Positions 3,646 to 62,931 of a DNA stretch of 64,000 nt are shown here, one piece after another. This DNA is from a bacterium (GTDB lineage: Bacteria; UBA9089; JASEGY01): positions 4,087 through 68,086 of the forward strand of contig JBFMHI010000002.1 in NCBI GenBank assembly GCA_040753085.1, read 5' to 3'. The notes below the pieces were generated by a model. It searched no databases. It was given only the letters and a program-made list of their open reading frames with translations, and was not told where the DNA came from. How positions within the stretch are numbered: the stretch's first letter is position 1; every line of letters starts with the position of its first letter. Both the position numbers and the translations under genes were made by a program.

Positions 3646-4410
3646 GTGCCACGACCTTCTTTTATCCACATTTACAACCAAGGGGCCAGTTCGGCTCTAA
3701 ATATTCATCTCATGGCTCAATACCTTAGAGAGAAAACCGGCCTGGATGTTGATATCCGAGGGAATCTTATTCCCACCCACGGCGACACCCAAAAATTAGT
3801 GGCTGAAGAGTTTGCTGGGGCAAAGATTGTTGACCCGCAGAAGAAGGGGCTAAATCCAGACCCGCTGTCGGCTGAGATTGAATATGAATCCAGGCTGCTT
3901 TCTGCTCAAAAGCCTTCCGGACTGCTTTATGATGGTTTCTGCGTGCAAGAGATATTTCGCAAGCTGATTCCTCAAATAGAACATAATCTAACCCATGCGC
4001 ATATCATATTTACTTCCCGGCTCTTTGGGACTTATGAAGACAACCGTTACCATGCCAGGATAGCTGTCTTTGGCATTCCTTCTATTATTTCTACTACCGG
4101 AATAGTTGAGGCGCCGGCCAAACCAAGAGAGTTTTACTTAAAAAAGGAGCTGGGGCAGGATCTAGCCAGGCTCAAAGAGGAATTTAAGGGCAGATTTATT
4201 GACTATGATGACCCGAGGCTGACTGAGGTGATGAAGGGGTATGTGATGCAGGCCCTTTTCTATCATGCCTTCGGTAATCCTTTTTGTGACGACCCTGAGT
4301 GCAGGCTTTACAATGCTCATTGGCAAGAGGAAGTAATCAAAGCCCAGCTTGAGGCCGAATATGAATTCTGTCCCCTTCATGAGCAGGCTTTATGGGAGGC
4401 AGCCAATTGA
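3646..4410 (+). CDS. hypothetical protein with a C-terminal Cys/His-rich motif (FCDDPECRLYNAHW...EFCPLHE); may continue the SWIM gene after frameshifts
   Basis: 254-aa ORF with no motif I can assign; it overlaps the 3519-3728 ORF in another frame, and the true start is uncertain (possibly M at 3712). Confidence 0.4.
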   Translation: MPRPSFIHIYNQGASSALNIHLMAQYLREKTGLDVDIRGNLIPTHGDTQKLVAEEFAGAKIVDPQKKGLNPDPLSAEIEYESRLLSAQKPSGLLYDGFCVQEIFRKLIPQIEHNLTHAHIIFTSRLFGTYEDNRYHARIAVFGIPSIISTTGIVEAPAKPREFYLKKELGQDLARLKEEFKGRFIDYDDPRLTEVMKGYVMQALFYHAFGNPFCDDPECRLYNAHWQEEVIKAQLEAEYEFCPLHEQALWEAAN

Positions 4411-5729
4411 ATAGACAGGCACTTAACAAAGATGGTGGAGAGATCAAAGAGAGGCTCAGGTGCTGGGAGTTTTATGATTGTGATAAAATAGAATGCCCTG
4501 CTTACCAAAATAAAGACCTTCCTTGTTGGCTTGTCTCAGGAACCCATTGTCGGAATGAAATCCAGGGTAAGTTCTACGATAAGCTTGAAGAGTGCGTTAA
4601 GTGCAGGGTCTTTCTTTCAGAAATGGATGGGGAAGAAGGCAGACAGGTCGTAGAAAAGGTGGTTAGTTCCCTCCATTCAATGGTGGCCAAACTGGAGGAG
4701 GAAGAAGAGCATCTGAAGTTAGAGAATATTTATCTAAAGAAAAGACTATCTAAAGAATATGCGCCCGATCTGGTGGTGGGAGCCAATAAGCAAATGGAAC
4801 AAATCTATAGTTTAATCACTAAAGTAGCCGTGACTGACTCGACCGTCCTGCTTACAGGTGAGACAGGTACGGGTAAAGGCCTCTTTGCCAGGGCCGTCCA
4901 CTATCATTCACCAAGATCAAGCCAGCCCTTTGTGCCCGTAAACTGTAGCACCCTGAGCGAAAGCCTCCTTGAATCCGAATTGTTCGGCCATGTAAAAGGG
5001 GCATTTACCAGCGCTACTTCTGATAAACATGGTCTATTCGAGCTGGCCAATAAGGGCACCTTCTTCTTTGATGAAATAGGCGATATTTCTCTGGCCATTC
5101 AGGGCAAATTGCTTGAAGTCCTCCAGGATAAAACTACAAAAAGGGTAGGGGGAACAAAGCCTGTAAAGGTAGATGTGAGGATAATCGCCGCGACCAACAA
5201 GGATATTGAAGCCCACGTGAAAGAAGGCCGGTTTCGGGAAGACCTCTTTTATCGATTAAATGTCTTCCCCATCCATCTGCCGGCTTTAAGAGAACGCAAA
5301 GAAGATATCCCCGCCCTGGCGGAATATTTTTTAGAAAAATTTAACCGGGAAAGAAAGAAGGGCGCCAAAGGTATTCATAAGAAGGCATTAAAAAAGCTGA
5401 TAGAATATGAATGGCCTGGCAATATCCGTGAATTTGAAAATGTTATTGAACGGGCGGTAATCTTAGCGGAGGAAGATCTTATCAGGCTTGAACACTTACC
5501 TATCTATATTAAAGGAAAAAGAGAAGGAACGGCCGCCGTTGAAGAGAAAGAAGTGATAAAAACCCTGGACGAATTAGAGAGAGAGCATATCTTAAGGGTG
5601 CTTAAGCTCACTTCCAACAAAAGGTCTGAAGTAGCTAAATTGTTGGGTATAGACCGAAAAACCCTTTATCGAAAGATAAAGGTATATAAGTTAGAAACAG
5701 CGGGGCATAATGTCCTACCTGTAGCATAA
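4392..5729 (+). CDS. sigma-54-dependent Fis-family transcriptional activator with an N-terminal 7-Cys domain
   Basis: Walker A GETGTGKG, GAFTSA variant of the GAFTGA loop, C-terminal Fis-type HTH (RSEVAKLLGIDRKTLYRKIK). The N-terminus reads CWEFYDCDKIECPAYQNKDLPCWLVSGTHCRNE...ECVKC. There is no receiver domain. Confidence 0.85.
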   Translation: MGGSQLNRQALNKDGGEIKERLRCWEFYDCDKIECPAYQNKDLPCWLVSGTHCRNEIQGKFYDKLEECVKCRVFLSEMDGEEGRQVVEKVVSSLHSMVAKLEEEEEHLKLENIYLKKRLSKEYAPDLVVGANKQMEQIYSLITKVAVTDSTVLLTGETGTGKGLFARAVHYHSPRSSQPFVPVNCSTLSESLLESELFGHVKGAFTSATSDKHGLFELANKGTFFFDEIGDISLAIQGKLLEVLQDKTTKRVGGTKPVKVDVRIIAATNKDIEAHVKEGRFREDLFYRLNVFPIHLPALRERKEDIPALAEYFLEKFNRERKKGAKGIHKKALKKLIEYEWPGNIREFENVIERAVILAEEDLIRLEHLPIYIKGKREGTAAVEEKEVIKTLDELEREHILRVLKLTSNKRSEVAKLLGIDRKTLYRKIKVYKLETAGHNVLPVA

Positions 5730-5863
5730 TGCCTCAATTGGTTATATCTTAATCAGTGATTCAGACATAAGGATTAAGAATTAGGTTATGAATAGAAATA
5801 ACAAGCTTTTGTAGAGGGCGCTTGTTTGGCAAGAGAATATTTATGTCGCCAATGATAGATACT

Positions 5864-10310: not shown

Positions 10311-10414
10311 GTAACTATTCAGGTGGATAGGCTGAAGGCTTTTAGAAATAAATACGGAGGGCATATTATTGGACTTCAGCCTTCAGTCTTCAGCCTATCT
10401 ACCTGAGTAGATAC
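10311..10414. repeat. hairpin element of the CTGAAGG heptamer family (imperfect termini GTAACTATTCAGG / CCTGAGTAGATAC)
   Basis: Inverted heptamer arrays gctgaagg / cttcagccttcagtcttcagcc; related copies at 46010-46137 and 54783-54851. Confidence 0.6.
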
Positions 10415-11099: not shown

Positions 11100-11283
11100 C
11101 GACCTGTATGGTTAGCTTAACCTTACTCACATCTTTTAAAAACCACGAAGCACACGAAGCACACGAAGAATTATAGAACAAATCTTTTAATCCCATTTAC
11201 CTTACCCTTAAATTACTTTCTTCGTGAACTTCGTGTTCTTTGTGGTTTATTTTTGCTTTTCCCTACCTAATCATACAGGTCGA
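11100..11283. mobile_element. MITE-like element with TIR CGACCTGTATGGTTA / TAATCATACAGGTCG, internal CACGAAG heptamer arrays and an 8-bp TSD AATTTTAT
   Basis: AATTTTAT is present immediately on both sides (11092-11099 and 11284-11291). The TIR is related to the 33216-33473 element; the internal arrays ccacgaagcacacgaagcacacgaag / cttcgtgaacttcgtg are inverted relative to each other. Confidence 0.65.
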
Positions 11284-13923: not shown

Positions 13924-14038
13924 AATCGCGAATCGCGGATCGCGAATTGCGAATTAAAAAATAGATTCGCGATTCGCAATTCGAGATTCGCGATTCGATA
14001 TGAATGCTTCCTACATTTTCTTCATAACTTTATATTCT
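13924..14038. repeat. ATTCGCG/AATCGCG heptamer array followed by an approximately 80-bp unit (copy 1)
   Basis: aatcgcgaatcgcggatcgcgaattgcgaatt, then aaaaaatagattcgcgattcgcaattcgagattcgcgattcgatatgaatgcttcc...cattttcttcataacttt. Confidence 0.7.
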
Positions 14039-14221: not shown

Positions 14222-14298
14222 CAAAAATAGATTCGCGATTCGCAATTCGAGATTCGCGATCCGATATGAATGCTTCCGGCATTTTCTTCATAACTTTG
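14222..14298. repeat. copy 2 of the approximately 80-bp ATTCGCG-containing unit (direct repeat of 13956-14038)
   Basis: Near-identical sequence: aaaaatagattcgcgattcgcaattcgagattcgcgatccgatatgaatgcttcc.gcattttcttcataacttt. Confidence 0.7.
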
Positions 14299-14861: not shown

Positions 14862-15070
14862 ATACTCGATACTCGATACTCGATGCTCGATACTCGATGT
14901 TCGATACTGGATATTGGATCCTTTACTAGCCTCGAGCATCGAGGATCGAGCATCGAGCATCGAGGATCGAGGATCGAGCATCGAGGATCGAGCATCGAGC
15001 ATCGAGGATCGAGGATCGAGGATCGAGGATCGAGCATCGAGGATCGAGGATCGAGCATCGAGCATCCAGC
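14862..15070. repeat. CATCGAG-family heptamer hairpin (left array CTCGATR about 6 units, centre GGATCCTTTACTAGCC, right array about 20 units of CATCGAG/GATCGAG)
   Basis: Directly visible tandem heptamers; it lacks the outer GTAACCGTTCA termini seen at other copies. Confidence 0.7.
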
Positions 15071-15421: not shown

Positions 15422-15990
15422 CCGAAACGATAATCAAAGCCGCCGGTGATAATCTAAGGATGGAAAAGTCGTGGTATGTGGTTCATACCTATTCAGGGTA
15501 TGAGAATAAGGTTAAAAACAATCTGGAACGCCGCTTGAAAACGATGGGGCTGGCCGATAAAATTGAAGATATTCTTATCCCCACGGAAGAAGTTGAAGAA
15601 AAAAAAGGGGGCAAGAAAAGGATTACCACCAAGAAATTCTTTCCCGGGTATATCCTGGTCAAAATGGTTATGACAGACGATGCCTGGTATATTGTCCGTC
15701 ATACGCCTGGTGTCTTTGGTTTTATTGGCCAACAGAATAAACCGGTGCCTCTCAAGGAAGAGGATGTTAAAAATATCCTGCATCAGATTGATTTAGGTGA
15801 AACCCGAGTGGGAGCTAAGGTGGCCTTTGAAGAGGGTGAAAGTATTAAAGTGGTGGAAGGGCCTTTTACCAATTTTGTGGGGGAAGTGAAAGAGATCAAT
15901 CTCAAGCAGAACAAGGTAAAGGTAATGATGAACATCCTGGGTCGTCTCACGCCGGTGGAGCTGGAGTTTGGGCAGGTGGAGAAATTATAA
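15418..15990 (+). CDS. nusG: transcription termination/antitermination factor NusG
   Basis: NGN region plus KOW motif IKVVEGPFTNFVGEV. Confidence 0.95.
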   Translation: MAETIIKAAGDNLRMEKSWYVVHTYSGYENKVKNNLERRLKTMGLADKIEDILIPTEEVEEKKGGKKRITTKKFFPGYILVKMVMTDDAWYIVRHTPGVFGFIGQQNKPVPLKEEDVKNILHQIDLGETRVGAKVAFEEGESIKVVEGPFTNFVGEVKEINLKQNKVKVMMNILGRLTPVELEFGQVEKL

Positions 15991-16007
15991 TTTATTGGTA
16001 ACTACTC

Positions 16008-16181
16008 AGCCTCTATATAGTAGCCTTACCTAGCGAAACCACAACATATTGTGTTTAGGTGTTTAAAAGTTAGCTAAAATTCCTAAAAAACGGCTTTCTA
16101 TGCAACCTATAAAAGGAGACGAACCACAATATATTGTGTTCTGTAAGCTTCAAAATCAATATGTGGTGGCTGAGTAGTTAC
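16008..16181. mobile_element. MITE-like hairpin element with TIR GTAACTACTCAGCC / GGCTGAGTAGTTAC and a perfect 8-bp TSD ATTTATTG
   Basis: ATTTATTG at 16000-16007 and 16182-16189; internal palindromic units aaccacaacatattgtgtt and aaccacaatatattgtgtt. Confidence 0.7.
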
Positions 16182-16188
16182 ATTTATT

Positions 16189-16337
16189 GTAACCGTTCAT
16201 CACATGATGCTTGATCCTCGATGCTCGATGCTCGATCCTCGATGCTGGTAAAGGATCCAGTATCCAGGATCGAGCATCGAGCATCGAGCATCGAGCATCG
16301 AGGTTGTGTCTTTGTGGCTTAGTGGCTGAACGGTTAC
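16189..16337. mobile_element. CATCGAG-family MITE (TIR GTAACCGTTCA / TGAACGGTTAC, inverted heptamer arrays around centre GGTAAAGGATCCAGTATCCAGG)
   Basis: gtaaccgttcatcacatgatg...ctcgatg arrays...catcgag arrays...ggctgaacggttac; inserted directly beside the previous element. Confidence 0.7.
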
Positions 16338-16372
16338 TAATTATTAATGATAACTGATCTTAAGGAGTAATC

Positions 16373-16801
16373 ATGGCTAAGAAGAAAGTAGTTAAAGAGA
16401 TTAAGCTTCAGATTCCGGCGGGAAGGGCTAATCCGGCACCTCCGGTTGGTCCGGCGCTGGGACAGGAGGGGGTAAATATCATGGAATTCTGCCGGGCCTT
16501 TAATGAACGCACCTCGAAACAAGAAGGTATGATTATCCCCGCCGTTATCAGTATCTATGAAGACAGGTCTTTTACCTTTGAATTAAAGACCCCGCCTGCC
16601 GCCGTTCTCTTAAAAAAGGCCGCGGCGGTTGAAAAGGGTTCTTCCGACCCCAATCGAAATAAGGTGGGTAAAGTGCCCCGCTCAGAGGTAGAGAAGATTG
16701 CCAAAATAAAGATGCCAGATCTTAATGCCATTAACCTTGAGGGGGCTATGCAGCAAGTCATGGGAACGGCCAGGTCAATGGGGATTGAGGTGGAAGGGTA
16801 G
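16373..16801 (+). CDS. rplK: 50S ribosomal protein L11
   Basis: [39 protein letters not shown]. Confidence 0.95.
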
Positions 16802-17425: not shown

Positions 17426-17559
17426 GTAACCGTTCAGCACATGATGCTGGATGCTCGATGCTCGATCTTCGATGCTGGTAAAGGATTCAGTATCCAGGAT
17501 CGAGCATCCAGCATCGAGGATCGAGGATCGAGTTTGTGCCTTAGGGGCTGAACGCTTAC
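17426..17559. mobile_element. CATCGAG-family MITE (TIR GTAACCGTTCA / TGAACGCTTAC) nested between ATTCGCG heptamer arrays at 17385-17418 and 17572-17612
   Basis: gtaaccgttcagcacatgatgctggatgctcgatgctcgatcttcgatgctggtaaaggattcagtatccaggatcgagcatcc...ggctgaacgcttac, with flanks aattgcgaatcgccaatct and aattcgcaattcgcgatccgcgattcgcgatt. Confidence 0.7.
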
Positions 17560-17664
17560 CTAAGTCTTTTAATTCGCAATTCGCGATCCGCGATTCGCGA
17601 TTAATCCGTAAGCGGCCCCAACGATGAACAAGGCCACAATATTGTTAATGGTTAAGGAGGCAAG

Positions 17665-22872: not shown

Positions 22873-22892
22873 ATGTCAATTATCAAAGGGAC

Positions 22893-22960
22893 CAAAGGGA
22901 CTATTGGCTATTGGCTATTGGCTTCTGTAATTTTAGTGGCTTTGTGTCTTTGTGACTGAG
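22893..22960. repeat. short heptamer arrays (CTATTGG x3; GGCTTTGTGTCTTTGTGAC) in the rpoB-rpoC spacer
   Basis: ctattggctattggctattggct ... ggctttgtgtctttgtgactgagtaattac; a partial member of the GTGTCTT family. Confidence 0.5.
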
Positions 22961-22998
22961 TAATTACATTAATTGTTTTAGAGAGGAGGGATCTTTAC

Positions 22999-27469: not shown

Positions 27470-28456
27470 ATGTTCAAGATGGCTAATAATAGACAGATGA
27501 CATTATTAAAGGCAGAAGAGGAGCATATCAGGAGGGTTCTTCCCTTACTCCTAAAGAAAGATGACAGGTTTAGAACCGAGGTCTCTATTATCCTAAGCGA
27601 GGTCTTTGCCAAGAAGGATGAGCTAAGGATAGTTATAGAGGAGATTCAGAAAAGCAGAGAAGAGACAAGCCGAAGGTTTGAGGAGATGCGAGAAGAGACA
27701 AGCCGAAGGTTTGAGGAGATGCGAGAAGAGACAAACCGAAGGTTTGAGGAGATGCGAGAAGAGACAAACCGAAGGTTTGAGGAGATGCGAGAAGAGACAA
27801 ACCGAAGGTTTGAGGAGATGAACCAAAGGTTTGAAGAACATCGCGAAGAGACAAACCGAAGGTTTGAGGAGATGAACCGAAGGTTTGAAGAACATTGCGA
27901 AGAGACAAACCGAAGGTTTGAGGAGATGAACCGAAGGTTTGAAGAACATCGCGAAGAGACAAATAAGAGGTTTGAGGCAGTAGAAACCCAACTTCAGGAA
28001 CAAACAAAGCAGCTAAGGGAGCATTCAGTCCAACTTCAGGAACAATCAAGGGAAATAAGAAGGATGGGGATAAGCATCAGAACCGTAGGGGCAAGGTGGG
28101 GAATATTTGCTGAAGGGACAATCCGAAATACCTTAAAGGAGCTACTCCTCAAAAAGCTTAAAGTAAAAGAGGTATCCTCGTGGAAGGTAATGGATAAAGA
28201 GGGAAAGGTAGGTATTCCTAATTCAGAGGTAGAGGTAGACATCCTTATCCAGAATGAGAAGCATTTTCTAATAGAGATAAAATCCTCTGCCGATGAAGAA
28301 AATGTAGAGAGGTTTTATAAAATAGGAAATTTTTATTATGAGAAGACAAAGATTAAGCCAAATCTTATCTTTGTAGCGGTGGAGATGAACAAAAAGGGAG
28401 AAGACCTCTGCAAAAAACTAGATATCCAGCTTATAACCTACGAGGATTTGGACTGA
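27470..28456 (+). CDS. tandem-repeat coiled-coil protein with a C-terminal PD-(D/E)XK (restriction-endonuclease-like) domain, possibly DUF3782-like
   Basis: About nine 11-aa repeats REETNRRFEEM, then a C-terminal region with EVEVDILIQNEKHFLIEIKSS (D..E.K pattern) and LIFVAVEM; inserted between rpoC and rpsL. Confidence 0.65.
   Translation: MFKMANNRQMTLLKAEEEHIRRVLPLLLKKDDRFRTEVSIILSEVFAKKDELRIVIEEIQKSREETSRRFEEMREETSRRFEEMREETNRRFEEMREETNRRFEEMREETNRRFEEMNQRFEEHREETNRRFEEMNRRFEEHCEETNRRFEEMNRRFEEHREETNKRFEAVETQLQEQTKQLREHSVQLQEQSREIRRMGISIRTVGARWGIFAEGTIRNTLKELLLKKLKVKEVSSWKVMDKEGKVGIPNSEVEVDILIQNEKHFLIEIKSSADEENVERFYKIGNFYYEKTKIKPNLIFVAVEMNKKGEDLCKKLDIQLITYEDLD
27655..27985 (+). repeat. array of about nine 33-nt tandem repeats (gaagagacaagccgaaggtttgaggagatgcga) inside the CDS
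   Basis: Directly visible near-identical 33-mers; they produce the spurious antisense ORFs 27623-28003 and 27633-28049. Confidence 0.85.
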
Positions 28457-29465: not shown

Positions 29466-29529
29466 AGTTTCGAGTTTCGAGTTGGCCGGAAGACGAAAGG
29501 CGAAACTTTAAACCCGAAACTCGAAACTT
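29466..29529. repeat. GAAACTC/GAGTTTC heptamer inverted arrays
   Basis: gtttcgagtttcgagtt ... aaacccgaaactcgaaactt. Confidence 0.6.
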
Positions 29530-32717: not shown

Positions 32718-32723
32718 AACTAA

Positions 32724-32811
32724 GCTCGATGCTCGATGCTCGATGCTGGGTAAAGGATCCCGTATCCAGGATCGAGCATCCAGCATCGAGGATCGAGCAT
32801 CGAGGATCGAG
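32724..32811. repeat. CATCGAG-family heptamer hairpin (no outer TIR) directly after the fusA stop
   Basis: gctcgatgctcgatgctcgatgctgggtaaaggatcccgtatccaggatcgagcatccagcatcgaggatcgagcatcgaggatcgag. Confidence 0.7.
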
Positions 32812-32821
32812 AGGAGTTGTT

Positions 32822-33215: not shown

Positions 33216-33473
33216 CGACCTGTACGGTTAGGTTGTAGACTACTGACGCTGAAAGCGTTGAATTTTAAATAGCCGTAGATGCAATCTCCGGAAACAAATC
33301 GCCACGCTCGACCCTGCAAGGGTCGAATATTATCCATCGCCTAGAATTCAACCCTTTCAGGGTTGAGATGTTCGTAGCTGTTTTACCTTCCGCAGGTTTC
33401 ACCTGTGGTTATGTAAAATTCAAACCTTTCAGGTTTGAAGGGAATTGCTTGTAATCTCTAACCGCACAGGTCG
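33216..33473. mobile_element. 258-bp MITE-like element (TIR CGACCTGTACGGTTA / TAACCGCACAGGTCG), internally a chain of short hairpins, perfect 8-bp TSD AAATAATT; second copy at 50696-50949
   Basis: AAATAATT at 33208-33215 and 33474-33481; internal hairpins gacgctGAAAgcgtc, cgaccctGCAAgggtcg, caaccctTTCAgggttg, caaaccTTTCAggtttg, ccgcaggtttcacctgtgg. The two copies are about 90% identical. Confidence 0.75.
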
Positions 33474-36406: not shown

Positions 36407-36467
36407 AGGGCGGATTGCGGATTGCGGATTGAAGATTTTAAATCCGAAATCAGAAATCCGAAATCCG
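36407..36467. repeat. CGGATTG / AATCCGA heptamer inverted arrays in the rpsS-rplV spacer
   Basis: ggattgcggattgcggattgaagattttaaatccgaaatcagaaatccgaaatccgcaat. Confidence 0.7.
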
Positions 36468-36486
36468 CAATAATCAGGAGACTTAG

Positions 36487-37592: not shown

Positions 37593-37754
37593 GTAACCGT
37601 TCATCCCATAAGGCTGGATGCTGGATGCTCGATTCTCGATGTTCGATCCTCGATGCTGGATACTGGATCCTTTACCAGCATCGAGGATCGAACATCGAGA
37701 ATCGAGCATCGAGCATCGAGGATCGAGTTTGTGCCTTAGGGGCTGAACGCTTAC
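37593..37754. mobile_element. CATCGAG-family MITE with TIR GTAACCGTTCA / TGAACGCTTAC and a perfect 8-bp TSD ACAATTAT
   Basis: ACAATTAT at 37585-37592 and 37755-37762; inverted heptamer arrays around centre GGATACTGGATCCTTTACCAGC. Confidence 0.8.
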
Positions 37755-42376: not shown

Positions 42377-42463
42377 GTAACTATTCAGCCACAAAGACAC
42401 TAAGACACGAAGATTATAAGAATTATTCTTTGTGCCTTTGTGCCTTGGTGGCTGAATAGTGAC
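42377..42463. mobile_element. GTGTCTT-family MITE (TIR GTAACTATTCAGCCAC / GTGGCTGAATAGTGAC) with a perfect 8-bp TSD AATTTACG, inserted into a CTATTCGGG/GTGTCTTCGTGGC repeat context
   Basis: AATTTACG at 42369-42376 and 42464-42471; internal arrays aaagacactaagacacgaag / ctttgtgcctttgtgcc. Confidence 0.75.
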
Positions 42464-44452: not shown

Positions 44453-44463
44453 TTAATAATTGG

Positions 44464-44597
44464 TAACCGTTCATCCCATGAGGCTAGAGGCTCGATCCTC
44501 GATGCTCGATGCTGGTAAAGGATCCAGTATCCAGGATCGAGCATCGAAGATCGAGCATCGAGTGGGTGTTTTTGTGCCTTACGGGCTGAACGCTTAT
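44464..44597. mobile_element. CATCGAG-family MITE (TIR GTAACCGTTCA / TGAACGCTTAT) with a perfect 8-bp TSD AATAATTG
   Basis: AATAATTG at 44456-44463 and 44598-44605. Confidence 0.8.
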
Positions 44598-46009: not shown

Positions 46010-46137
46010 ACGTAACTATTCAGGCAGATAGGCTGAAGGCTTTTAGAAATAAATGCGGAGAGCAGATGATTGCACGTCAGCCTTCAGCCTTCAGTCTTCA
46101 GCCTTCAGCCTTCAGTCTTCAGCCTATCTACCTGAAT
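46010..46137. repeat. CTGAAGG-family hairpin element (GTAACTATTCAGGCAGATAGGCTGAAGG ... (CCTTCAG)n ... CCTATCTACCTGAAT)
   Basis: Close relative of the 10311-10414 element; 8 tandem ccttcag/tcttcag units. Confidence 0.65.
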
Positions 46138-48730: not shown

Positions 48731-48866
48731 GTAACCGTTCATCACATGATGCTCGATGCTCGATCCTGGATGCTCGATGCTCGATGACGGGATCCTTTTT
48801 TATCATCGAGGATCGAGCTTCGAGGATCGAGTTGGTGTCCTTGTGCCTGAGGGGCTGAACGTTTAC
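48731..48866. mobile_element. CATCGAG-family MITE (TIR GTAACCGTTCA / TGAACGTTTAC), TSD CAATTATC / CAATTATT (7 of 8)
   Basis: gtaaccgttcatcacatgatgctcgatgctcgatcctggatgctcgatgctcgatgacgggatccttttttatcatcgaggatcgagcttcgaggatcgag...ggctgaacgtttac. Confidence 0.75.
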
Positions 48867-50545: not shown

Positions 50546-50695
50546 GGCGTTTACCTTCCGCCAGCTACCTAACAGTCAATGTATTTCTTTTTCATGCCGA
50601 TTCTCCTTTCTATAACACATTGCTATCATATTAGAGATATCGACATAATTGCCTAATAACTAAATCAAAGGTCATGGAAAAATTTCGACCTGTAC

Positions 50696-50949
50696 GGTTA
50701 AGGTTGTAGACTACTACTGACGCTGAAAGCGTCAAATTTTAAATAGCCGTAGGTGCAAGCTACGGAAGATAAATACATCCGCAACGCTCGACCCTGCAAG
50801 GGTCGAATTATCCATCACATAGAATTCAACCCTTTCAGGGTTGAGCTGTGGTAGATGCTTCGTTTCCGCAGGTTTTACCTGTGGTTATGTAAAATTCAAA
50901 CCTTTCAGGTTTGAGGAGAATTGCTTGTAATTCCTAACCGTACGGGTCG
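50696..50949. mobile_element. second copy of the approximately 258-bp structured MITE (TIR CGACCTGTACGGTTA / TAACCGTACGGGTCG)
   Basis: About 90% identical to 33216-33473, including all internal hairpins. Confidence 0.75.
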
Positions 50950-50957
50950 AAATTTTT

Positions 50958-51245
50958 CGACCTGTGAAATAGGTTTATACAAATATCCCCCAATTAGGGT
51001 AAGAAAGAGAATAAACAGATCGCTCCTCTGGAGCTAATTTGTTATGAGAGATATATTCTACAAACATGTCGCTCCTCTGGAGCTAACCTGAATAAAGCTC
51101 CGTAGGAGAGCAATCTGTTTGTAGTATTTCGCAAAAGCAATATATTTGCAGCTCCGTAGGAGCGACCTGTTTTTAGTAGTAGAGCTTGAATATCTATGTC
51201 TATGGGAAGTTTCTTGCATTTTATTTAAATCTATTTCACAGGTCG
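50958..51245. mobile_element. 288-bp MITE (20-bp TIR CGACCTGTGAAATAGGTTTA / TAAATCTATTTCACAGGTCG) with a perfect 8-bp TSD AAATTTTT; the internal GCTCC-nnn-GGAGC hairpin units (GTCGCTCCTACGGAGC and its variant GCTCCAGAGGAGC) are arranged as a long palindrome; inverted copy at 62578-62866
   Basis: AAATTTTT at 50950-50957 and 51246-51253; the element is inserted immediately after the terminus of the previous element. Confidence 0.8.
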
Positions 51246-51261
51246 AAATTTTTCTTCACGG

Positions 51262-51294
51262 GTAACCGTTCATCCCATGAGGCTGAACGCTTAC
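51262..51294. mobile_element. minimal ('solo-TIR') CATCGAG-family element, GTAACCGTTCATCCCATGAGGCTGAACGCTTAC, with a perfect 8-bp TSD CTTCACGG
   Basis: CTTCACGG at 51254-51261 and 51295-51302; it contains only the two termini, with the heptamer core absent. Confidence 0.75.
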
Positions 51295-54154: not shown

Positions 54155-54190
54155 TGACTCAAAATCCGAAACTCGAAACCCGAAACGCGG
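54155..54190. repeat. GAAACnCG heptamer array
   Basis: aaatccgaaactcgaaacccgaaacgcggaac. Confidence 0.6.
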
Positions 54191-54193
54191 AAC

Positions 54194-54769
54194 TTAATGT
54201 GGCGGTATATGTGCGGTGGAAATGACACTGTAAATCGGCCCGGCCGGCGTTAACTGGCTCTTCATTAAATTGATCTTAGTCACCGGCATTTTAATAGAAA
54301 CAACCTTTAGTGAACTCATTATTTCAGCCAATTTGTCTCTATTATCTATTTCTTTTACCCGGCCGAGGGTGATGTGAGAGACAAATTCTTTGTCCTCCTT
54401 TGGCACCCCTATACTGAATAATCGGCGATCCAATTCCTGAGCCAGTTGTTTCAGTCTCTCCCGCGGGTCTTTTATCCCTACCCAGACTATTCTTGGCTTT
54501 TTAAGAGACGGGAAAGCCCCTAAGGCATCCAGAGATATCTCGAACCATTCTTTTCTCTGAGCGGTTTCCTGAATGATCTTCGTCACAGACTTGAGATTGT
54601 TCCTGGGAATATTTCCCATGAATTTCAAAGTGAGATGGATAGAATCCGGCTCAACCCACTTTACTTTTGCTACAGCCTTTTTTAGCCGCTCCTGAACACT
54701 AATTAATTCTTCTTTTATCTCCGGGGTAATGGGAATGGCAATAAAGCATCTGATATCAGCATCACTCAT
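54194..54769 (-). CDS. thpR: RNA 2',3'-cyclic phosphodiesterase (2H family)
   Basis: Two H-x-T-x motifs (HLTLKF and HITLGR) at typical spacing. Confidence 0.85.
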   Translation of the reverse strand: MSDADIRCFIAIPITPEIKEELISVQERLKKAVAKVKWVEPDSIHLTLKFMGNIPRNNLKSVTKIIQETAQRKEWFEISLDALGAFPSLKKPRIVWVGIKDPRERLKQLAQELDRRLFSIGVPKEDKEFVSHITLGRVKEIDNRDKLAEIMSSLKVVSIKMPVTKINLMKSQLTPAGPIYSVISTAHIPPH

Positions 54770-54782
54770 AGGTTCATATCTC

Positions 54783-54851
54783 GTAACTACTCAGGTAGAT
54801 AGGCTGTCCCTAAAAGCCTTCCAACTTCAGTTTATTTACCTGAGTAGTTAC
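54783..54851. mobile_element. 69-bp hairpin MITE (TIR GTAACTACTCAGG / CCTGAGTAGTTAC) with a perfect 8-bp TSD CATATCTC, inserted into the 3' end of cinA/pncC
   Basis: CATATCTC at 54775-54782 and 54852-54859; the stop codon of the minus-strand gene (54810-54812) lies inside the element. Confidence 0.75.
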
Positions 54852-56531: not shown

Positions 56532-58829
56532 ATGAAAGATTTCAATCTCTTACAGGTAAGCAGTATAATTTTACTCCTTTTGCTCTTCCTCCCTGGTTGC
56601 TGGACCAGGGATGAAGTAATGACCATCCGTCTTTGGGAATTCCCCCGCTGGCGTGAGGGGGATGAGCTGGACCGCTTTGTCTGGATCAAGCGTCAGATAG
56701 CCGAGTTTGAAGCGAGCCATCCTGGGGTCAAGATCGAGTTGACTGAGTTGACCTGGGATAGGGGCCAGGATAAGATCCGGATCGCCACCGCGGCCGGGTT
56801 GGGGCCGGACATTGTCTCCGGCAGTCTGCCGGTGGAATATATTGAAGCCGGAGTGATAGAACCAATAGATGATTATCTGGCTCTCGAGGATAAGAAAGAT
56901 TACTACCCGGCCGGCTTCAGCGCCTATACCTATAAAGGCAAACACTGGGGCTGGCCATGGTTTCTGACCGGTCAGATGCTTTTTTTGAATCTGGATATAT
57001 TTAAAGAACGGGGAGTGGAACCCCCACAGGGTCCCTGGACTTACGAAGAGTTTGCCGCTAAAATGAAGGCCATGACCTTTGATTCTGACGGAGATAAAAG
57101 GGTAGACACTTATGGCTTCGGCTTTACAGTCACTCCCGGCGCCACCGATATCTGGCCATTTCTTTATATGGATGGCGGCCGCGCCTTGAGTGATGATCTC
57201 ACGCAATATACCTTTGATGAACCACCTGGCGTCTCCGGCCTGAGCCAACTGCGGGACCTGGTCCATACCTACCGGGTGTCTTTACCGGAGAGTGGTGGTC
57301 TGAAAACAACCGACCTCTGGCAGGCCTTTGCCAAGCAGAGACGGATTGCCTGCGCTCCCTGGGGTATTTGGGCCATCCCTGCCCTAAGGTTTGATGAGGC
57401 CCAAAAAGCGAAGGGATTAACGGAGGAGGATTTCTTTGACTTCACGGTGGTCGGTTATCCTATGGGCAAGAGCGGCCAACCTTTAACTTTCATTGGGGTA
57501 AGTGGGTTCATTGTCTTTAAACAGCCTGACCCTGCCAGGCGAGATATGTGCATAGAACTGGCTAAATCTCTTACCAGCGGTCAGAACCAGAAGGCTCTGG
57601 CTGCTTATGGGGTCTTTCCTACCCGCGTCTCAGCCGGGAATATTTATCCGGACGATCCCTATATGACTAAGGCGGCTAAAATCCTTCAGGATGGCCTAAC
57701 TGTTCCGGCTCATCCTGATTGGGGTAAGATGGATGAGGTCATTCAGCGGCAGATCCAATTGGCTGTTTTGGGTGAAAAAAGTGCGGCTGCCGCCCTGACT
57801 GATGCCGGAGTAGAGGTTGAAGCTATCCTGTCTCAAAGGCTAAAGACCACTGCCGACTTGAAGGGCATTGGAGTCGGGGAAAAGGCGGGAAACTACCTCT
57901 ATCTTTTTCTATTTCTGGCTGGAGCCTTGATACTCTGGTTAGGACTGAAGATGAGGGGCATAAAGGAATCCACCCGCTTTGCCTACCTAGCTATTTCCCC
58001 GGCGATGCTTATCTTTGCCGTTTTCCTGGCCTTTCCGGTCGGTCGGGCCTTTTTATTGGCCTTTCAGGAATACGAAATCGGCGGCCCTATCCTGGGGAAT
58101 TGGGTCGGCGCCGACAACTTTCGGGCCTTAGCTAAAAATGAGGTCTTCTGGAAATCCCTGAAGAATACCCTGGTCTACACGGCCTTTACGGTCCCGATAA
58201 ATGTCCTGATTGCCCTTATTCTGGCTAGCCTCATTCATCCCTTATCCGACCGCATGCGGACCTTTTTCCGGGCGGCCTATTATCTCCCCCATGTCACCTC
58301 AGTAGTGGTCATCTCCATGGTCTGGCGCTGGCTTTTTGATTACAACTACGGTCTCTTAAACCAGGTCCTTACCGGCCTGGGCCTTGAAGGCCTTCACTGG
58401 CTGACTGATGTTCACCTGGCCATGGGCAGCATCATTGGCTCCAGCCTGCTTTACACCCCTGGCGGCCCGATTATTATCTATCTGGCGGCTCTGGCGGCCA
58501 TGCCTTCTTCCCTTCACGAAGCAGCCCTGATGGACGGGGCCGGGCCAATCCGCCGCTGGTGGCACATCACCCTCCCCCTGCTTCGACCCACTACCCTGTT
58601 TTTGTTAGTCACTACTTCCATCGCCTCCTTTCAGGTCTTTGCCCAGGTGCTCATTCTAACTGATGGCGGCCCTGGCTATGCCACTTCTGTCTTAGTTCAC
58701 CGCATCTACACCACCGCCTTTAGAGACTTTGACTTCGGCCTCGCCTCAGCTATGGCCTTGATTCTTTTTGTAGTCATTATGACTATCTCTGCCATCCAAT
58801 TTAAGATTTTCAGGAAAAAATGGGAGTAA
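56532..58829 (+). CDS. fused ABC transporter: carbohydrate substrate-binding lipoprotein (aa 1 to about 450) plus permease domain (aa about 460-765)
   Basis: Lipoprotein signal LLLLLFLPGCW; SBP family 1-like domain; then 6 TM helices with EAA loop EAALMDGAGPIRRWWHITLP in the same reading frame. Confidence 0.7.
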   Translation: MKDFNLLQVSSIILLLLLFLPGCWTRDEVMTIRLWEFPRWREGDELDRFVWIKRQIAEFEASHPGVKIELTELTWDRGQDKIRIATAAGLGPDIVSGSLPVEYIEAGVIEPIDDYLALEDKKDYYPAGFSAYTYKGKHWGWPWFLTGQMLFLNLDIFKERGVEPPQGPWTYEEFAAKMKAMTFDSDGDKRVDTYGFGFTVTPGATDIWPFLYMDGGRALSDDLTQYTFDEPPGVSGLSQLRDLVHTYRVSLPESGGLKTTDLWQAFAKQRRIACAPWGIWAIPALRFDEAQKAKGLTEEDFFDFTVVGYPMGKSGQPLTFIGVSGFIVFKQPDPARRDMCIELAKSLTSGQNQKALAAYGVFPTRVSAGNIYPDDPYMTKAAKILQDGLTVPAHPDWGKMDEVIQRQIQLAVLGEKSAAAALTDAGVEVEAILSQRLKTTADLKGIGVGEKAGNYLYLFLFLAGALILWLGLKMRGIKESTRFAYLAISPAMLIFAVFLAFPVGRAFLLAFQEYEIGGPILGNWVGADNFRALAKNEVFWKSLKNTLVYTAFTVPINVLIALILASLIHPLSDRMRTFFRAAYYLPHVTSVVVISMVWRWLFDYNYGLLNQVLTGLGLEGLHWLTDVHLAMGSIIGSSLLYTPGGPIIIYLAALAAMPSSLHEAALMDGAGPIRRWWHITLPLLRPTTLFLLVTTSIASFQVFAQVLILTDGGPGYATSVLVHRIYTTAFRDFDFGLASAMALILFVVIMTISAIQFKIFRKKWE

Positions 58830-59025
58830 CTATTCAGCCACGGATTAACCCGGATTAGCACGGATAAAATAGAATGAGTTTAAAATAGGGAAAAATAACA
58901 GAGGACATTATCGGGAGGAGCATTTGAAGTTTACAATTTGGAAGAGAAAGAGTTGAATTTAAACGATTCATATTATTAAAAAAAATCAGTGTTTCATCCG
59001 TGTAAATCTGTGGCTGAATAGTTAC
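58826..59025. repeat. hairpin element with TIR GTAACTATTCAGCCAC / GTGGCTGAATAGTTAC and CGGATTA-type heptamers, large central loop
   Basis: gtaactattcagccacggattaacccggattagcacggat ... tcatccgtgtaaatctgtggctgaatagttac; partial relatives at 53215-53260, 62367-62405 and 62880-62930. Confidence 0.6.
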
Positions 59026-62352: not shown

Positions 62353-62405
62353 AAGTTTAATAGATAGTAACTATTCAGCCACACAGATTTAAACACTGAT
62401 TTTTT

Positions 62406-62577
62406 GTAACCGTTCAGCCACCAAGGCACGAAGACACGAAGGGAAAAAAATATGTGTCTTAGAGAGCAGTAGAGCCATAGAGCAGCCGTTCTGGAACTTT
62501 CAGAAAAATCTCTAACTACTGCTCTGCTGCTCTACTGCTCTATTTTTGTGTCTTTGTGTCTTTGTGGCTGAACACTT
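62406..62577. mobile_element. GTGTCTT-family MITE (TIR GTAACCGTTCAGCCAC / GTGGCTGAACACTTAC) with a nested AGAGCAG/CTGCTCT heptamer hairpin
   Basis: Two nested inverted heptamer arrays (cacgaagacacgaag/gtgtctttgtgtctttgtgg and agagcagtagagccatagagcag/ctgctctgctgctctactgctct); the right terminus is interrupted by the next element. Confidence 0.7.
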
Positions 62578-62866
62578 ACGACCTGTGAAATAGGTTTAAA
62601 TAAAATGCAAGAAATTTCCCATAGACATAGATATTCAAGCTCTACTCCTACTAAAAACAGGTCGCTCCTACGGAGCTGCAAATATATGCTTTTGCGAAAT
62701 ACTACAAACAGATTGCTCCTACGGAGCTTTATTCAGGTTAGCTCCAGAGGAGCGACATGTTTGTAGAATATATCTCTCATAACAAATTAGCTCCAGAGGA
62801 GCGATCTGTTTATTCTCTTTCTTACCCTAATTGGGGGATATTTGTATAAACCTATTTCACAGGTCG
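62578..62866. mobile_element. inverted copy of the 288-bp MITE (TIR CGACCTGTGAAATAGGTTTA) with a perfect 8-bp TSD AACACTTA, inserted into the terminus of the preceding element
   Basis: AACACTTA at 62570-62577 and 62867-62874; the sequence is the reverse complement of 50958-51245 at about 95% identity. Confidence 0.8.
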
Positions 62867-62931
62867 AACACTTACAACTCATTCTATTTTATCCGTGCTA
62901 ATCCGTGTTAATCAGTGGCTGAATAGTTACG

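What the first reader, a model, noticed from the sequence alone, without database searches (positions are those of the whole stretch)
16000..16189. Additional hairpin-element families with 8-bp TSDs, indicating a super-family sharing GTAAC..TCAG termini
Elements with different internal heptamers but similar termini also show perfect duplications. These are 16008-16181 with TSD ATTTATTG, 11100-11283 with AATTTTAT, 42377-42463 with AATTTACG, 54783-54851 with CATATCTC and 33216-33473 with AAATAATT. Together with the CATCGAG family this gives at least five sequence families using an 8-bp staggered cut. Internal modules are swapped between families: CTGAAGG, GTGTCTT/CACGAAG, AGAGCAG and CGGATTA heptamer arrays. 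This suggests modular evolution of the hairpin core by slippage and replacement while the termini are maintained.
Basis: seen in the sequence. Interest (0 to 1): 0.7.

Follow-up and report, generated by a model that had tools for sequence, protein, structure and literature searches.

The report
Miniature transposons from two transposase families
The short hairpin repeats flanked by 8-base duplications are real miniature non-coding transposons, but they form two unrelated groups: one has the end sequences of IS66/ISBst12 insertion sequences and the other has the ends of an unannotated ISKra4-like (Mutator-type) element, so this is an ordinary case, notable only for how densely the elements are packed.

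Summary
All five elements carry perfect 8-bp target-site duplications (TSDs). The chance of one 8/8 match at a random placement is about 1.4e-4. They do not share one kind of terminus.

Class A has the terminus GTAAC[T/C][A/G]TTCAGCC. It includes 15998-16181, 42377-42463, 54783-54851, the CATCGAG family and a 33-bp minimal element. Its first 16 nt are identical to the termini of full-length 1.6-1.8 kb insertion sequences (ISs) in public contigs. Those ISs encode a single zf-IS66 + DDE_Tnp_IS66 transposase (ISBst12 group of the IS66 family; one is 100% identical to a Geobacillus protein) and make 8-bp TSDs.

Class B has the terminus CGACCTGT. It includes 11100-11282, 33216-33473 and three more elements. 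Its terminus matches 1.7-1.8 kb metagenomic elements that encode a roughly 410-550 aa protein annotated "hypothetical". That protein is distantly related to ISKra4/ISLre2/ISH6 (prokaryotic Mutator-like) transposases, which make 8-9 bp duplications.

The window holds about 20 paired elements plus solo ends, about 5% of its bases, and no transposase. Most sit in spacers of ribosomal-protein and RNA polymerase operons. Nesting and a 97%-identical pair show recent activity.

[quoted passage not shown] The single super-family and the IS256/ISL3/IS1595 candidates do not. Only two of the repeat types are true heptamers. Verdict: new members of a known kind.

The parts
15998..16181 (.). Class A1 MITE, 184 bp (the finding's element). 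It lies in the nusG-rplK spacer and is a single copy in the window.
   Evidence: The terminal inverted repeats (TIRs) are GTAACTACTCAGCCTC and GTAACTACTCAGCCAC. The TSD ATTTATTG lies at 15990-15997 and 16182-16189. RNA fold gives -52.8 kcal/mol, z -5.5. Its right TSD copy uses the first G of the neighbouring element at 16189, so it inserted after that neighbour.
42377..42463 (.). Class A1 MITE, 87 bp, with a CACNAAGA 8-mer core. It lies between rpsE and rplO.
   Evidence: TIRs GTAACTATTCAGCCAC and GTCACTATTCAGCCAC; TSD AATTTACG. TRF period 8. It is 85-87% similar to elements in Desulfobacteraceae metagenome-assembled genomes (MAGs) L094 and L095. Flanking genes.
54783..54851 (.). Class A1 MITE, 69 bp, CTGAAGG sub-type. 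It overlaps the 3' end of a cinA-like ORF.
   Evidence: TIR GTAACTACTCAGGTAG at both ends; TSD CATATCTC. The first 16 nt equal the terminus of the full-length IS at L118:2118-3950.
10311..10414 (.). Class A1 element, 104 bp, CTGAAGG family, no TSD.
   Evidence: TIRs GTAACTATTCAGGTGGATAGGCTGAAGG and GTATCTACTCAGGTAGATAGGCTGAAGA. Its core is 90% identical to 46012-46137.
46012..46137 (.). Class A1 element, CTGAAGG family, with a degenerate right terminus and asymmetric arrays (1 versus 7 units).
58826..59025 (.). Class A1 element, 200 bp, CGGATTA-type (period 10), no TSD. Its GTAAC end supplies the TAA stop of ORF 56532-58829.
   Evidence: TIR GTAACTATTCAGCCAC at both ends.
62367..62930 (.). Composite: an outer class A1 (CGGATTA-type) element that carries an inner class A2 element (62406-62579), which in turn carries a class B insertion.
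   Evidence: Sequence. The outer ends are 97% identical to 58826-59025.
62406..62579 (+). Class A2 element (GTGTCTT/AGAGCAG-type 8-mers) nested inside 62367-62930. Its right terminus is hit by the class B element.
   Evidence: TIRs GTAACCGTTCAGCCAC and GTAAGTGTTCAGCCAC.
62579..62866 (.). Class B MITE, 288 bp, inserted into the terminus of the class A2 element.
   Evidence: TIR CGACCTGTGAAATAGGTTTA; TSD AACACTTA. It is 97.3% identical to 50958-51245.
11100..11282 (.). Class B MITE, 183 bp, with a CACGAAGCA 9-mer core.
   Evidence: TIRs CGACCTGTATGGTTAG and CGACCTGTATGATTAG; TSD AATTTTAT.
33216..33473 (.). Class B MITE, 258 bp, between rpsJ and rplC.
   Evidence: TIRs CGACCTGTACGGTTAG and CGACCTGTGCGGTTAG; TSD AAATAATT. 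It is 87% identical to 50686-50949.
50686..50949 (.). Class B MITE, 264 bp, with flanks that match at 6/8.
50958..51245 (.). Class B MITE, 288 bp, abutting the previous one.
   Evidence: TSD AAATTTTT.
51262..51294 (+). Minimal class A2 element, 33 bp: two TIRs and a short loop.
   Evidence: Sequence GTAACCGTTCATCCCATGAGGCTGAACGCTTAC with TSD CTTCACGG.
16189..16337 (+). Class A2 CATCGAG-family element, with flanks that match at 6/8. Further A2 CATCGAG copies are 17426-17559 (5/8), 37593-37754 (TSD ACAATTAT), 44463-44597 (TSD AATAATTG), 48731-48866 (7/8) and 56379-56467 (6/8).
   Evidence: Left end GTAACCGTTCA[T/G]C, right end GTAA[G/C]CGTTCAGCC.
22873..22967 (-). Solo class A terminus with adjoining arrays in the rpoB-rpoC spacer. 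Other solo termini are at 1370(+), 5907(-), 33144(+) and 39175(-).

Best explanation
The window carries two unrelated classes of MITEs.

Class A has the terminus GTAAC[T/C][A/G]TTCAGCC. Two sub-types are never mixed within one element: A1 (GTAACTAYTCAG) and A2 (GTAA[C/G]CGTTCA[G/T]). Class A elements are non-autonomous derivatives of IS66-family elements of the ISBst12 group. A single-ORF zf-IS66/DDE_Tnp_IS66 transposase, supplied in trans, binds the roughly 14-16 bp ends and integrates them at an 8-bp staggered cut. Repair of the cut gives the 8-bp duplication.

Class B has the terminus CGACCTGT. It works the same way with a different enzyme: a roughly 410-550 aa DDE transposase of an unannotated clade distantly related to ISKra4/ISLre2 (prokaryotic Mutator-like transposases), which also gives an 8-bp duplication.

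Shown here: the termini, the duplications, the hairpin shape, the nesting, and the fact that identical termini bound transposase-bearing elements elsewhere.

Inferred: that such transposases exist, or existed, in this organism and moved these copies; and that the variable cores arise by slippage of 7-10-nt units, nested insertion and deletion.
For: Class A:
- An exact scan for GTAACTAYTCAGCCAC in IMG/VR viral contigs returned two full-length elements. L036:369-1981 is 1613 bp with TSD ATTAAATG. L053:5732-7352 is 1621 bp.
- Each carries one ORF of about 490 aa with zf-IS66 and DDE_Tnp_IS66 (E 4e-60 and 3e-53). NCBIfam gives IS66 family transposase at 348 bits against a cutoff of 180.
- The L036 protein is 100% identical to a Geobacillus kaustophilus protein and 83% identical to one named ISBst12.
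- Retrieval by protein, independent of the termini, gave 10 loci. Six full-length elements have 8-bp TSDs, one of them (L115) with divergent termini. Termini include GTAACTATTCAGCC.. (L111, L112, L117), GTAACTACTTAG (L116) and GTAACTACTCAGGTAGGT (L118, equal to the window's 54783 sub-type).
- Literature: IS66 inverted repeats start GTAAGCG and give 8-bp direct repeats (PMC11946415). ISDge4 (ISBst12 group) has TIRs GTGACTACTCAGCA and GTAACTGCTCAGCA with an 8-bp direct repeat (PMC12898284).
- MITE-sized copies with the same ends and 8-bp TSDs occur elsewhere: in distant relatives (L078, three copies, one independently in the same nusG-rplK spacer), in a Nitrospinae MAG (L081, L083, L091, L093) and in L029.

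Class B:
- A metagenome scan for CGACCTGTAYGGTTAG gave 1.68-1.80 kb elements bounded by this 16-mer in inverted orientation (L130, L176, L194, L231). L242 and L243 were added through protein homologues.
- Each intact copy carries one long ORF.
- NCBIfam scores are ISKra4 E 1.5e-22, ISLre2 1.4e-13 and ISH6 1e-4.
- D234 (DDVG), D357 (LDW) and E449 (NPVER) are invariant, and D333 (FTDG) is nearly invariant, in 15 homologues.
- p-MULT elements give 8-9 bp direct repeats (PMC3942029).

Activity in the window:
- 10 of 19 pairs have perfect 8/8 TSDs.
- A class B element sits inside a class A terminus with its own TSD.
- Two class B copies are 97.3% identical.
- No IS66-like coding remnant is present in the window (tblastn).
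Against: - No autonomous partner was seen in this organism. Only 64 kb of it could be read, and its assembly is absent from the scanned collections.
- No full-length element with A2-type ends (GTAA[C/G]CGTTCAG) was found. The A2 link rests on resemblance to IS66 termini such as GTAACCGTCCGG and GTAAGCGTCCGG.
- The class B transposase scores far below the ISKra4 model cutoff (80 versus 205 bits).
- TSDs of the full-length class B copies are imperfect or absent: 7/8 (L194, L242), 6/8 (L243), 5/8 (L176) and 4/8 (L130, L231). Because the target is A/T-rich, part of that similarity could be target preference.
- About half of the class A pairs lack a perfect TSD.
Confidence: 0.85

Rival explanations
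1. All these hairpin elements form one super-family with GTAAC..TCAG ends, moved by one 8-bp-cutting transposase of the IS256, ISL3 or IS1595 type.
For: All of them give 8-bp TSDs. IS256 belongs to the same Mutator-like superfamily as the class B partner (PMC3942029).
Against: - Two of the five listed elements, plus three more in the window, end in CGACCTGT, not GTAAC.
- Elements carrying these two termini encode unrelated proteins: DDE_Tnp_IS66 versus ISKra4-like.
- NCBIfam listed no IS256, ISL3 or IS1595 model at E<=0.1. Pfam gave only sub-threshold DDE_Tnp_ISL3 matches to the class B protein (15 and 13 bits, cutoff 23).
Confidence: 0.03
2. The tandem-repeat hairpins are a separate, lineage-wide feature: slippage-prone or functional intergenic hairpins. 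Transposon ends have repeatedly become attached to them, or the hairpins expand inside any palindromic DNA. On this view the hairpin process creates new MITE families, rather than the families descending from deleted ISs.
For: - Many TIR-less heptamer hairpins lie in the window's spacers: AATCGCG, AGTTTCG, GCGGATT, GGATTGC, and CATCGAG arrays at 14862-15069, 32718-32818 and 61558-61640.
- The TIR-less 32718-32818 is 94% identical to the core of 16189-16337.
- Relatives have other repeat units (L001; L078).
- CACGAAG-type repeats occur inside both a class A element and a class B element.
Against: - TIR-less arrays may simply be decayed MITEs.
- The finding's own element has no array.
- L121 is a 678-bp internally deleted IS that keeps both ends, which shows the classical deletion route.
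- No significant cross-class core similarity was found.
Confidence: 0.2
3. The elements are primarily functional RNA or DNA structures retained by selection, such as terminators, attenuators, processing or stabilising hairpins in ribosomal-protein and RNA polymerase operons. On this view the flanking repeats are incidental.
For: - The elements sit in spacers of co-transcribed operons: nusG-rplK, rplA-rplJ, rpsJ-rplC, rpsE-rplO and after rplQ.
- They fold very stably.
- The same spacers are occupied independently in a distant relative.
- All eight A2 copies share one orientation.
Against: - Perfect TSDs of unrelated sequence, and termini identical to IS ends.
- No Rfam family match.
- No terminator-like or promoter-like site at 15900-16420.
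- Cores are unrelated between families. Occupancy of spacers is what purifying selection against genic insertions would give.
Confidence: 0.07
4. These are REP/REPIN-like palindromes moved by a RAYT/IS200-type Y1 transposase.
For: They are short intergenic palindromes. A Y1_Tnp gene lies next to nusG in relative L077.
Against: Y1 (HUH) transposition makes no target duplication and needs no terminal inverted repeats (established knowledge of IS200/IS605). Here 8-bp TSDs and IS66-type or ISKra4-like-type TIRs are present.
Confidence: 0.01

Closest known systems
ISBst12 group of the IS66 family (ISBst12 of Geobacillus; ISDge4 of Deinococcus geothermalis)
   Same: The class A1 terminus matches the IS termini over 14-16 nt: GTAACTAYTCAGCC(AC). 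Both give an 8-bp target duplication.
   Different: The window's copies are 33-564 bp with no ORF. Their cores are hairpins, often with 7-10-nt tandem units. No transposase gene lies in the 64 kb read. The host is an unclassified MAG far from Bacillota and Deinococcota.
Canonical IS66 (tnpA/B/C) elements such as ISPsko1 and ISPa75
   Same: Their inverted repeats begin GTAAGCGTCCGG or GTAACCGTCCGG and they give 8-bp direct repeats. Class A2 ends read GTAA[G/C]CGTTCAG.
   Different: The match holds only for the first 9-10 nt. No full-length element with exact A2 ends was found.
ISKra4 / ISMich2 / ISLre2 (p-MULT 3 and 4, prokaryotic Mutator-like transposases; PMC3942029)
   Same: The transposase bounded by class B ends hits the ISKra4, ISLre2 and ISH6 models. 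Conserved acidic residues fit a DDE triad. The family gives 8-9 bp direct repeats.
   Different: The score is well below the family cutoff (80 versus 205 bits). Every homologue that carries a source name is labelled 'hypothetical protein', and most have no Pfam domain. I know of no reported MITE for this group; a 2024 review of prokaryotic MITEs mentions neither IS66 nor ISKra4.
Classical bacterial MITEs (Nezha, Chunjie, Correia, RUP) and the Porphyromonas gingivalis MITE that contains a minisatellite (PMC4596501)
   Same: TIRs shared with an IS, flanking direct repeats, stable hairpins and intergenic location (PMC3184786). There is precedent for a tandem array inside a MITE (title and abstract of PMC4596501).
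   Different: The termini and duplication length differ (Chunjie gives 9 bp). Here several core families share each terminus, and two classes co-exist at very high density inside core operons.
Heptamer repeats of cyanobacteria (STRR) and TAACTGA repeats of Beggiatoaceae (PMC4679880)
   Same: Abundant intergenic 7-nt tandem repeats.
   Different: As I recall, those are mostly direct arrays without transposon ends or TSDs. Here the arrays form inverted pairs and many lie between IS-type termini. I did not test this resemblance.

Membership tests
MITE (generic) | Small size with no coding capacity | tested here: met
   Elements are 33-288 bp, or 564 bp for the nested composite. tblastn with IS66-type transposases found nothing in the window.
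MITE (generic) | Terminal inverted repeats | tested here: met
   Class A has 12-16 nt TIRs at 34 termini, with T2, T9, C10 and A11 invariant and G1 and A3 in 33 of 34. Class B has 16-20 nt TIRs at 10 termini.
MITE (generic) | Target-site duplication of fixed length | tested here: met
   10 of 19 pairs match 8/8 and 1 more matches 7/8; random P(8/8) is 1.4e-4. About half are imperfect or lack a TSD.
MITE (generic) | TIRs shared with an autonomous IS in the same genome | not testable with these tools
   The source assembly could not be retrieved. Matching ISs were found only in other organisms.
MITE (generic) | Filled versus empty sites in close relatives | not testable with these tools
   The nearest relative (NusG 83% identical) is a 2.1-kb contig that ends 94 bp after nusG.
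IS66 family, ISBst12 group (as parent of class A) | Termini beginning GTAA | tested here: met
   31 of 34 class A termini begin GTAA. The literature consensus is GTAAGCG.
IS66 family, ISBst12 group (as parent of class A) | 8-bp (8-9 bp) target duplication | tested here: met
   literature.
IS66 family, ISBst12 group (as parent of class A) | Elements with these termini encode a single DDE_Tnp_IS66 transposase | tested here: met
   L036/L111, L053/L114, L112 and L116-L119. This is met for the A1 sub-type only. For A2 no full-length element was found.
ISKra4 family / p-MULT (as parent of class B) | Transposase reaches the family model's curated cutoff | tested here: not met
   NCBIfam ISKra4 gives 80.3 bits against a cutoff of 205. 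E 1.5e-22 shows homology, not membership. ISLre2 gives 50.9 bits against 200.
ISKra4 family / p-MULT (as parent of class B) | 8-9 bp direct repeats | tested here: met
   4 of 5 window copies match 8/8, and L165 matches 8/8. The family property is from PMC3942029. Full-length copies match at only 4/8 to 7/8.
ISKra4 family / p-MULT (as parent of class B) | Conserved DDE catalytic residues | tested here: inconclusive
   D234, D357 and E449 are invariant and D333 nearly invariant in 15 homologues. Which residues form the triad was not established structurally.
   Elements bounded by the observed termini encode IS66-type or ISKra4-like proteins. The only trace of any of the three families is a sub-threshold Pfam DDE_Tnp_ISL3 match to the class B protein (15 and 13 bits, cutoff 23). 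NCBIfam listed none of them at E<=0.1.
REP/REPIN (RAYT-mobilised) | No target duplication, and an association with a Y1 transposase | tested here: not met
   8-bp TSDs are present.

The most novel reading that the evidence does not exclude
The tandem 7-10-nt hairpin arrays come from a lineage-specific process that is independent of transposition. Transposon ends of two unrelated families repeatedly acquire, or are remodelled by, these hairpins, so that new MITE families are generated continually.

In addition, the class B partner would be an undescribed IS family within the Mutator-like transposases, and the 33-bp element would define the minimal substrate of an IS66-type transposase.
Probability: 0.2. 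Interest if true: 0.6.

Novelty: new member of a known kind. Interest (0 to 1): 0.35.

Why it matters
- It assigns parent IS types to repeat families that fill the spacers of core operons in an uncultured, unclassified bacterium. Such repeats break assemblies and confuse annotation.
- It documents MITEs for two IS groups, IS66/ISBst12 and an ISKra4-like clade, that a 2024 review of prokaryotic MITEs does not mention.
- The clade of about 320 "hypothetical proteins" it flags is very probably a set of transposases with defined ends (CGACCTGTACGGTTAG).
- A 33-bp element with a perfect TSD suggests that two 12-16 bp ends are enough for IS66-type integration. This is testable for a family whose mechanism is poorly known.
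- None of this changes the general picture of MITE biology.

Tried and rejected
- I looked for the source genome. An exact look-up of NusG failed. A 23-nt class A2 pattern gave 0 hits in genome contigs and in metagenome contigs. The identical protein exists only as NCBI MEW5766076.1, 'MAG ... [bacterium]'.
- Viral-contig scans for class B termini returned only conserved phage coding sequence, not ISs.
- The scan for A2-type full-length ISs gave no pairs and no IS66 homologues. The 31 genome loci with GTAACCGTTCAGCCACNRAG held only MITE-sized pairs.
- Rfam at gathering thresholds found only a tRNA. The promoter/terminator scan of 15900-16420 found nothing.
- I tested whether the two TSD-less CGGATTA-type copies (58826-59025 and 62367-62930, inverted) had exchanged flanks by inversion. 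The reverse-complemented flanks do not match (1/8 and 5/8 by eye), so I rejected this.
- I tried to identify transposases from the same assembly through accession numbers, but the listing of cluster members returned no accessions.
- Two papers could not be read: Elhai et al. 2008 on small dispersed repeats, and the Chunjie paper.
- Cross-class 'module swapping' (the CACGAAG core of 11100 versus 42377) shows only a roughly 17-nt resemblance by eye and is not significant in BLAST.
Full report
**Setting**

The window is a chromosomal stretch of a non-cyanobacterial organism with about 46% GC.
- It carries a sigma-54 activator, nusG, rplK-rplA-rplJ-rplL, an unsplit rpoB and rpoC, fusA, and the S10/spc/alpha ribosomal-protein operons through rplQ, followed by recO.
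- The NusG protein is identical to NCBI MEW5766076.1, 'MAG ... [bacterium]', on a 73.9-kb contig. The next best match is 83% identical (a 2.1-kb Logan contig), and all others are <=67%.
- The source assembly could not be reached by any route. Everything about 'the genome' beyond these 64 kb is therefore inference.

**Checking the observation**

All five 8-bp duplications are real.
- Two coordinates need correcting. The element of the finding is 15998-16181, not 16008-16181, and the second element ends at 11282.
- With the element boundaries fixed by the inverted repeats, only k = 8 gives identical flanks.
- In 100,000 random placements of segments of the same sizes, 8/8 identity occurred at 1.4e-4.
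- A systematic catalogue found 14 paired class A elements plus one with a degenerate end, five or six solo class A termini, and five class B elements. Together they cover 3,165 bp, or 4.9% of the window.
- 10 of 19 pairs have perfect 8-bp duplications. One more matches 7/8 and three match 6/8.
- All elements fold far better than shuffled controls, with z from -5 to -17, except the 33-bp mini element (z -2.2).

**Two classes, not one**

Three of the five listed elements, and the CATCGAG family, end in GTAAC[T/C][A/G]TTCAGCC. The other two (11100-11282 and 33216-33473), plus 50686-50949, 50958-51245 and 62579-62866, end in CGACCTGT(AYGGTTAG or GAAATAGGTTTA). That terminus has no similarity to the first.

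Within class A, positions 6-7 are either TA (A1: GTAACTAYTCAG) or CG (A2: GTAA[C/G]CGTTCA[G/T]). The two ends of any one element are always of the same sub-type.

The 'heptamer' description is exact only for CTGAAGG and CATCGAG. The other arrays have periods of 8, 9 or 10, and the element at the finding's own coordinates has no array.

**Class A is IS66/ISBst12-derived**

The literature states that IS66 inverted repeats begin GTAAGCG and give 8-bp direct repeats (PMC11946415). ISDge4, of the ISBst12 group, has TIRs GTGACTACTCAGCA and GTAACTGCTCAGCA with an 8-bp repeat (PMC12898284).

I tested this lead directly.
- An exact scan for GTAACTAYTCAGCCAC in IMG/VR returned two full-length elements among mostly chance hits. 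L036:369-1981 is 1613 bp with TSD ATTAAATG. L053:5732-7352 is 1621 bp. The scan also returned a 204-bp MITE, L029:6156-6359, with TSD GATTATTT.
- Each full-length element has one ORF of about 490 aa with zf-IS66 and DDE_Tnp_IS66. NCBIfam gives IS66 transposase at 348 bits against a cutoff of 180.
- The L036 protein is 100% identical to a Geobacillus kaustophilus IS66-family protein and 83% identical to one labelled ISBst12.

Because that scan was seeded with the terminus, I repeated the retrieval from the protein side, using a 10-sequence alignment.
- Of 10 loci, six full-length elements have perfect 8-bp duplications.
- Their termini include GTAACTATTCAGCC.., GTAACTACTTAG.. and GTAACTACTCAGGTAGGT.
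- The last of these matches the window's CTGAAGG sub-type (54783, 10311, 46012) over 16 nt.
- L121 is a 678-bp internally deleted copy that keeps both ends. It is a snapshot of MITE formation by deletion.

The window itself holds no IS66-type coding remnant.

**Class A elsewhere**

- Two MAGs whose NusG is only 64% identical (GCA_040757115.1 and GCA_040755795.1, 35-37% GC) carry GTAACCGTTCAG- and GTAACTATTCAC-ended elements with CACAGAG-type 8-mers and perfect 8-bp duplications. One is an independent insertion in the same nusG-rplK spacer, and another lies in the rplA-rplJ spacer.
- A genome-collection scan for GTAACCGTTCAGCCACNRAG gave 31 loci. Fifteen are from 'Nitrospinae bacterium RIFCSPLOWO2_12_FULL_45_22'. 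The rest are mainly Desulfobacteraceae or other Deltaproteobacteria MAGs.
- Four of these loci hold 112-214-bp elements with perfect 8-bp duplications.
- No full-length element with A2-type ends was found there or in viral contigs. The A2 assignment therefore rests on resemblance to IS66 termini such as GTAACCGTCCGG and GTAAGCGTCCGG.

**Class B has an ISKra4-like partner**

Among them are four elements of 1.68-1.80 kb bounded by this 16-mer in inverted orientation (L130, L176, L194, L231). There are also several MITE-sized pairs, including L165 with an 8/8 duplication.
- The intact copies encode one ORF; the open frame is 487-505 aa in L176 and L231.
- Pfam gives only sub-threshold matches (UPF0236 and DDE_Tnp_ISL3). 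NCBIfam gives ISKra4 (E 1.5e-22, 80 bits, cutoff 205), ISLre2 (1.4e-13) and ISH6 (1e-4).
- The database holds 322 homologues at E<=1e-10. Every one that carries a source name is called 'hypothetical protein'. Most are on 1.5-3 kb contigs, as expected for repeats that break assemblies.
- Two homologues on longer contigs are again bounded by the same termini: L242:2490-4244 (between folP and glmM) and L243:2643-4395.
- D234, D357 and E449 are invariant, and D333 nearly so, in 15 homologues.
- ISKra4, ISLre2, ISH6 and IS256 are the prokaryotic Mutator-like transposases, whose insertions give 8- or 9-bp direct repeats (PMC3942029). This fits class B.
- One caveat applies. Flanks of the full-length copies match at only 4/8 to 7/8 (7/8 at best), and the targets are A/T-rich (AAATTTTT-like). 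The clean evidence for an 8-bp duplication therefore comes from the MITE-sized copies, including the non-A/T-only AACACTTA.
- One metagenomic contig (L179) carries both a class B MITE and CTGAAGG-type class A MITEs. The two classes therefore co-occur outside this window as well.

**Evidence of activity and order of events**

- 62367-62930 is a three-level nest. The outer element is A1. Inside it, an A2 element has replaced about 100 bp. A class B element then sits in the last bases of that A2 terminus, flanked by AACACTTA.
- That class B copy is 97.3% identical to 50958-51245.
- The finding's element duplicated a target (ATTTATTG) whose last base is the first G of the neighbouring CATCGAG element. 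It therefore arrived after that neighbour.
- 51262-51294 is only 33 bp, two ends and a loop, yet it has a perfect duplication, CTTCACGG. This suggests that 12-16 bp ends suffice for integration.

**Mechanism**

- Shown: the anatomy, the duplications, the nesting, and identical ends on transposase-bearing elements elsewhere.
- Inferred: trans-mobilisation by an ISBst12-type DDE transposase (class A) and by an ISKra4-like Mutator-type DDE transposase (class B). Each would make an 8-bp staggered cut that repair converts into the duplication.
- Core diversity is best explained by three processes. The first is slippage of short units; for example, 1 versus 7 CTGAAGG units in the two arms of 46012-46137. 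The second is nested insertion, and the third is deletion.
- The concentration in operon spacers, and the independent occupation of the same spacers in a distant relative, is what selection against genic insertions predicts. A secondary RNA-level role is neither shown nor excluded. There is no Rfam match and no terminator-like or promoter-like site at the finding.

**Rivals**

- A single super-family moved by an IS256/ISL3/IS1595 transposase is contradicted by the two termini and the two unrelated proteins.
- REP/REPIN-type mobilisation is contradicted by the duplications.
- The one reading that stays open concerns the tandem-repeat hairpins, which could be an independent lineage-wide feature. 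Many TIR-less heptamer hairpins occur in the window and in relatives, and one TIR-less CATCGAG array is 94% identical to a MITE core.
- On that reading, the hairpin process remodels or even seeds MITE families. Decay of MITE termini would produce the same picture. I rate this open reading at about 0.2.

**Novelty**

MITEs are well known. What is new here is the pairing of specific MITE families with IS66/ISBst12 and with an unannotated ISKra4-like clade.
- A search for 'ISBst12' together with 'MITE' found no paper.
- A 2024 review of prokaryotic MITEs mentions neither IS66 nor ISKra4.
- The local density inside core operons is also unusually high.

This is a new member of a known kind, of moderate to low general interest.

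Noticed in passing
window 13924-13997, 14230-14260, 17572-17602, 29466-29528, 36410-36471, 54157-54194, 61498-61531, 22884-22923; also 14862-15069, 32718-32818, 59049-59082, 61558-61640: Many intergenic hairpins are built from inverted arrays of 7-nt units (AATCGCG, AGTTTCG, GCGGATT, GGATTGC, CTATTGG, CATCGAG) with no transposon ends and no duplications. Relatives have different units: GGTGTCT in L001, and ACCAGTT x13 and TGGTAAC x19 in L078, the latter in the rpoB-rpoC spacer.
   Followed up: partly
window 16189, 17426, 37593, 44463, 48731, 51262, 56379, 62406: All eight class A2 elements lie in the same orientation, with GTAACCG.. on the left of the + strand and GTAAGCG/GTAAGTG/GTAACCG.. on the right. 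This includes the one at 62406, where the neighbouring genes are on the - strand. I have no explanation for this orientation bias.
   Followed up: no
window 58826-58830 and 54783-54851: The GTAAC terminus supplies the TAA stop of the ORF at 56532-58829, a solute-binding-protein and permease fusion. The cinA-like ORF at 54810-55340(-) ends inside the 69-bp MITE. The insertions have therefore reshaped the 3' ends of two genes.
   Followed up: no
window 51262-51294: A 33-bp element consists only of two class A2 ends and a loop, with the perfect 8-bp duplication CTTCACGG. It is a candidate minimal substrate for an IS66-type transposase.
   Followed up: partly
L176:655-2421, L231:107-1854, L130, L194, L242:2490-4244, L243:2643-4395; proteins P0241-P0360: A clade of about 320 proteins of roughly 410-550 aa is distantly related to ISKra4/ISLre2. 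Those with a source name are labelled 'hypothetical', and most have no Pfam domain. Their genes sit in 1.7-1.8 kb elements with CGACCTGTACGGTTAG ends. This looks like an uncurated IS group.
   Followed up: partly
L121:2302-2979: A 678-bp element has intact GTAACTACTCAGGTT ends but keeps only the part encoding the first ~115 residues of the IS66-type transposase. It is an internally deleted IS on the way to becoming a MITE.
   Followed up: no
L077:3623-11821 versus L078:3095-3419: In one distant relative the nusG-rplK spacer has grown to about 8 kb. It holds a Y1 transposase fragment, a glycosyltransferase and a 1589-aa secreted protein. In the sister MAG the same spacer is about 320 bp with one MITE.
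   Followed up: no
window 27470-28456 (repeats 27657-28002): This gene has 33- and 54-nt in-frame tandem repeats and encodes a DUF3782 + PD-(D/E)XK_10 protein just downstream of rpoC.
   Followed up: no
L179 (Ga0255442_1091): 1183-1346, 4000-4163, 5587-5760: One metagenomic contig carries CTGAAGG-type class A MITEs and a class B MITE together. It probably comes from an organism that shares this window's set of mobile elements.
   Followed up: partly
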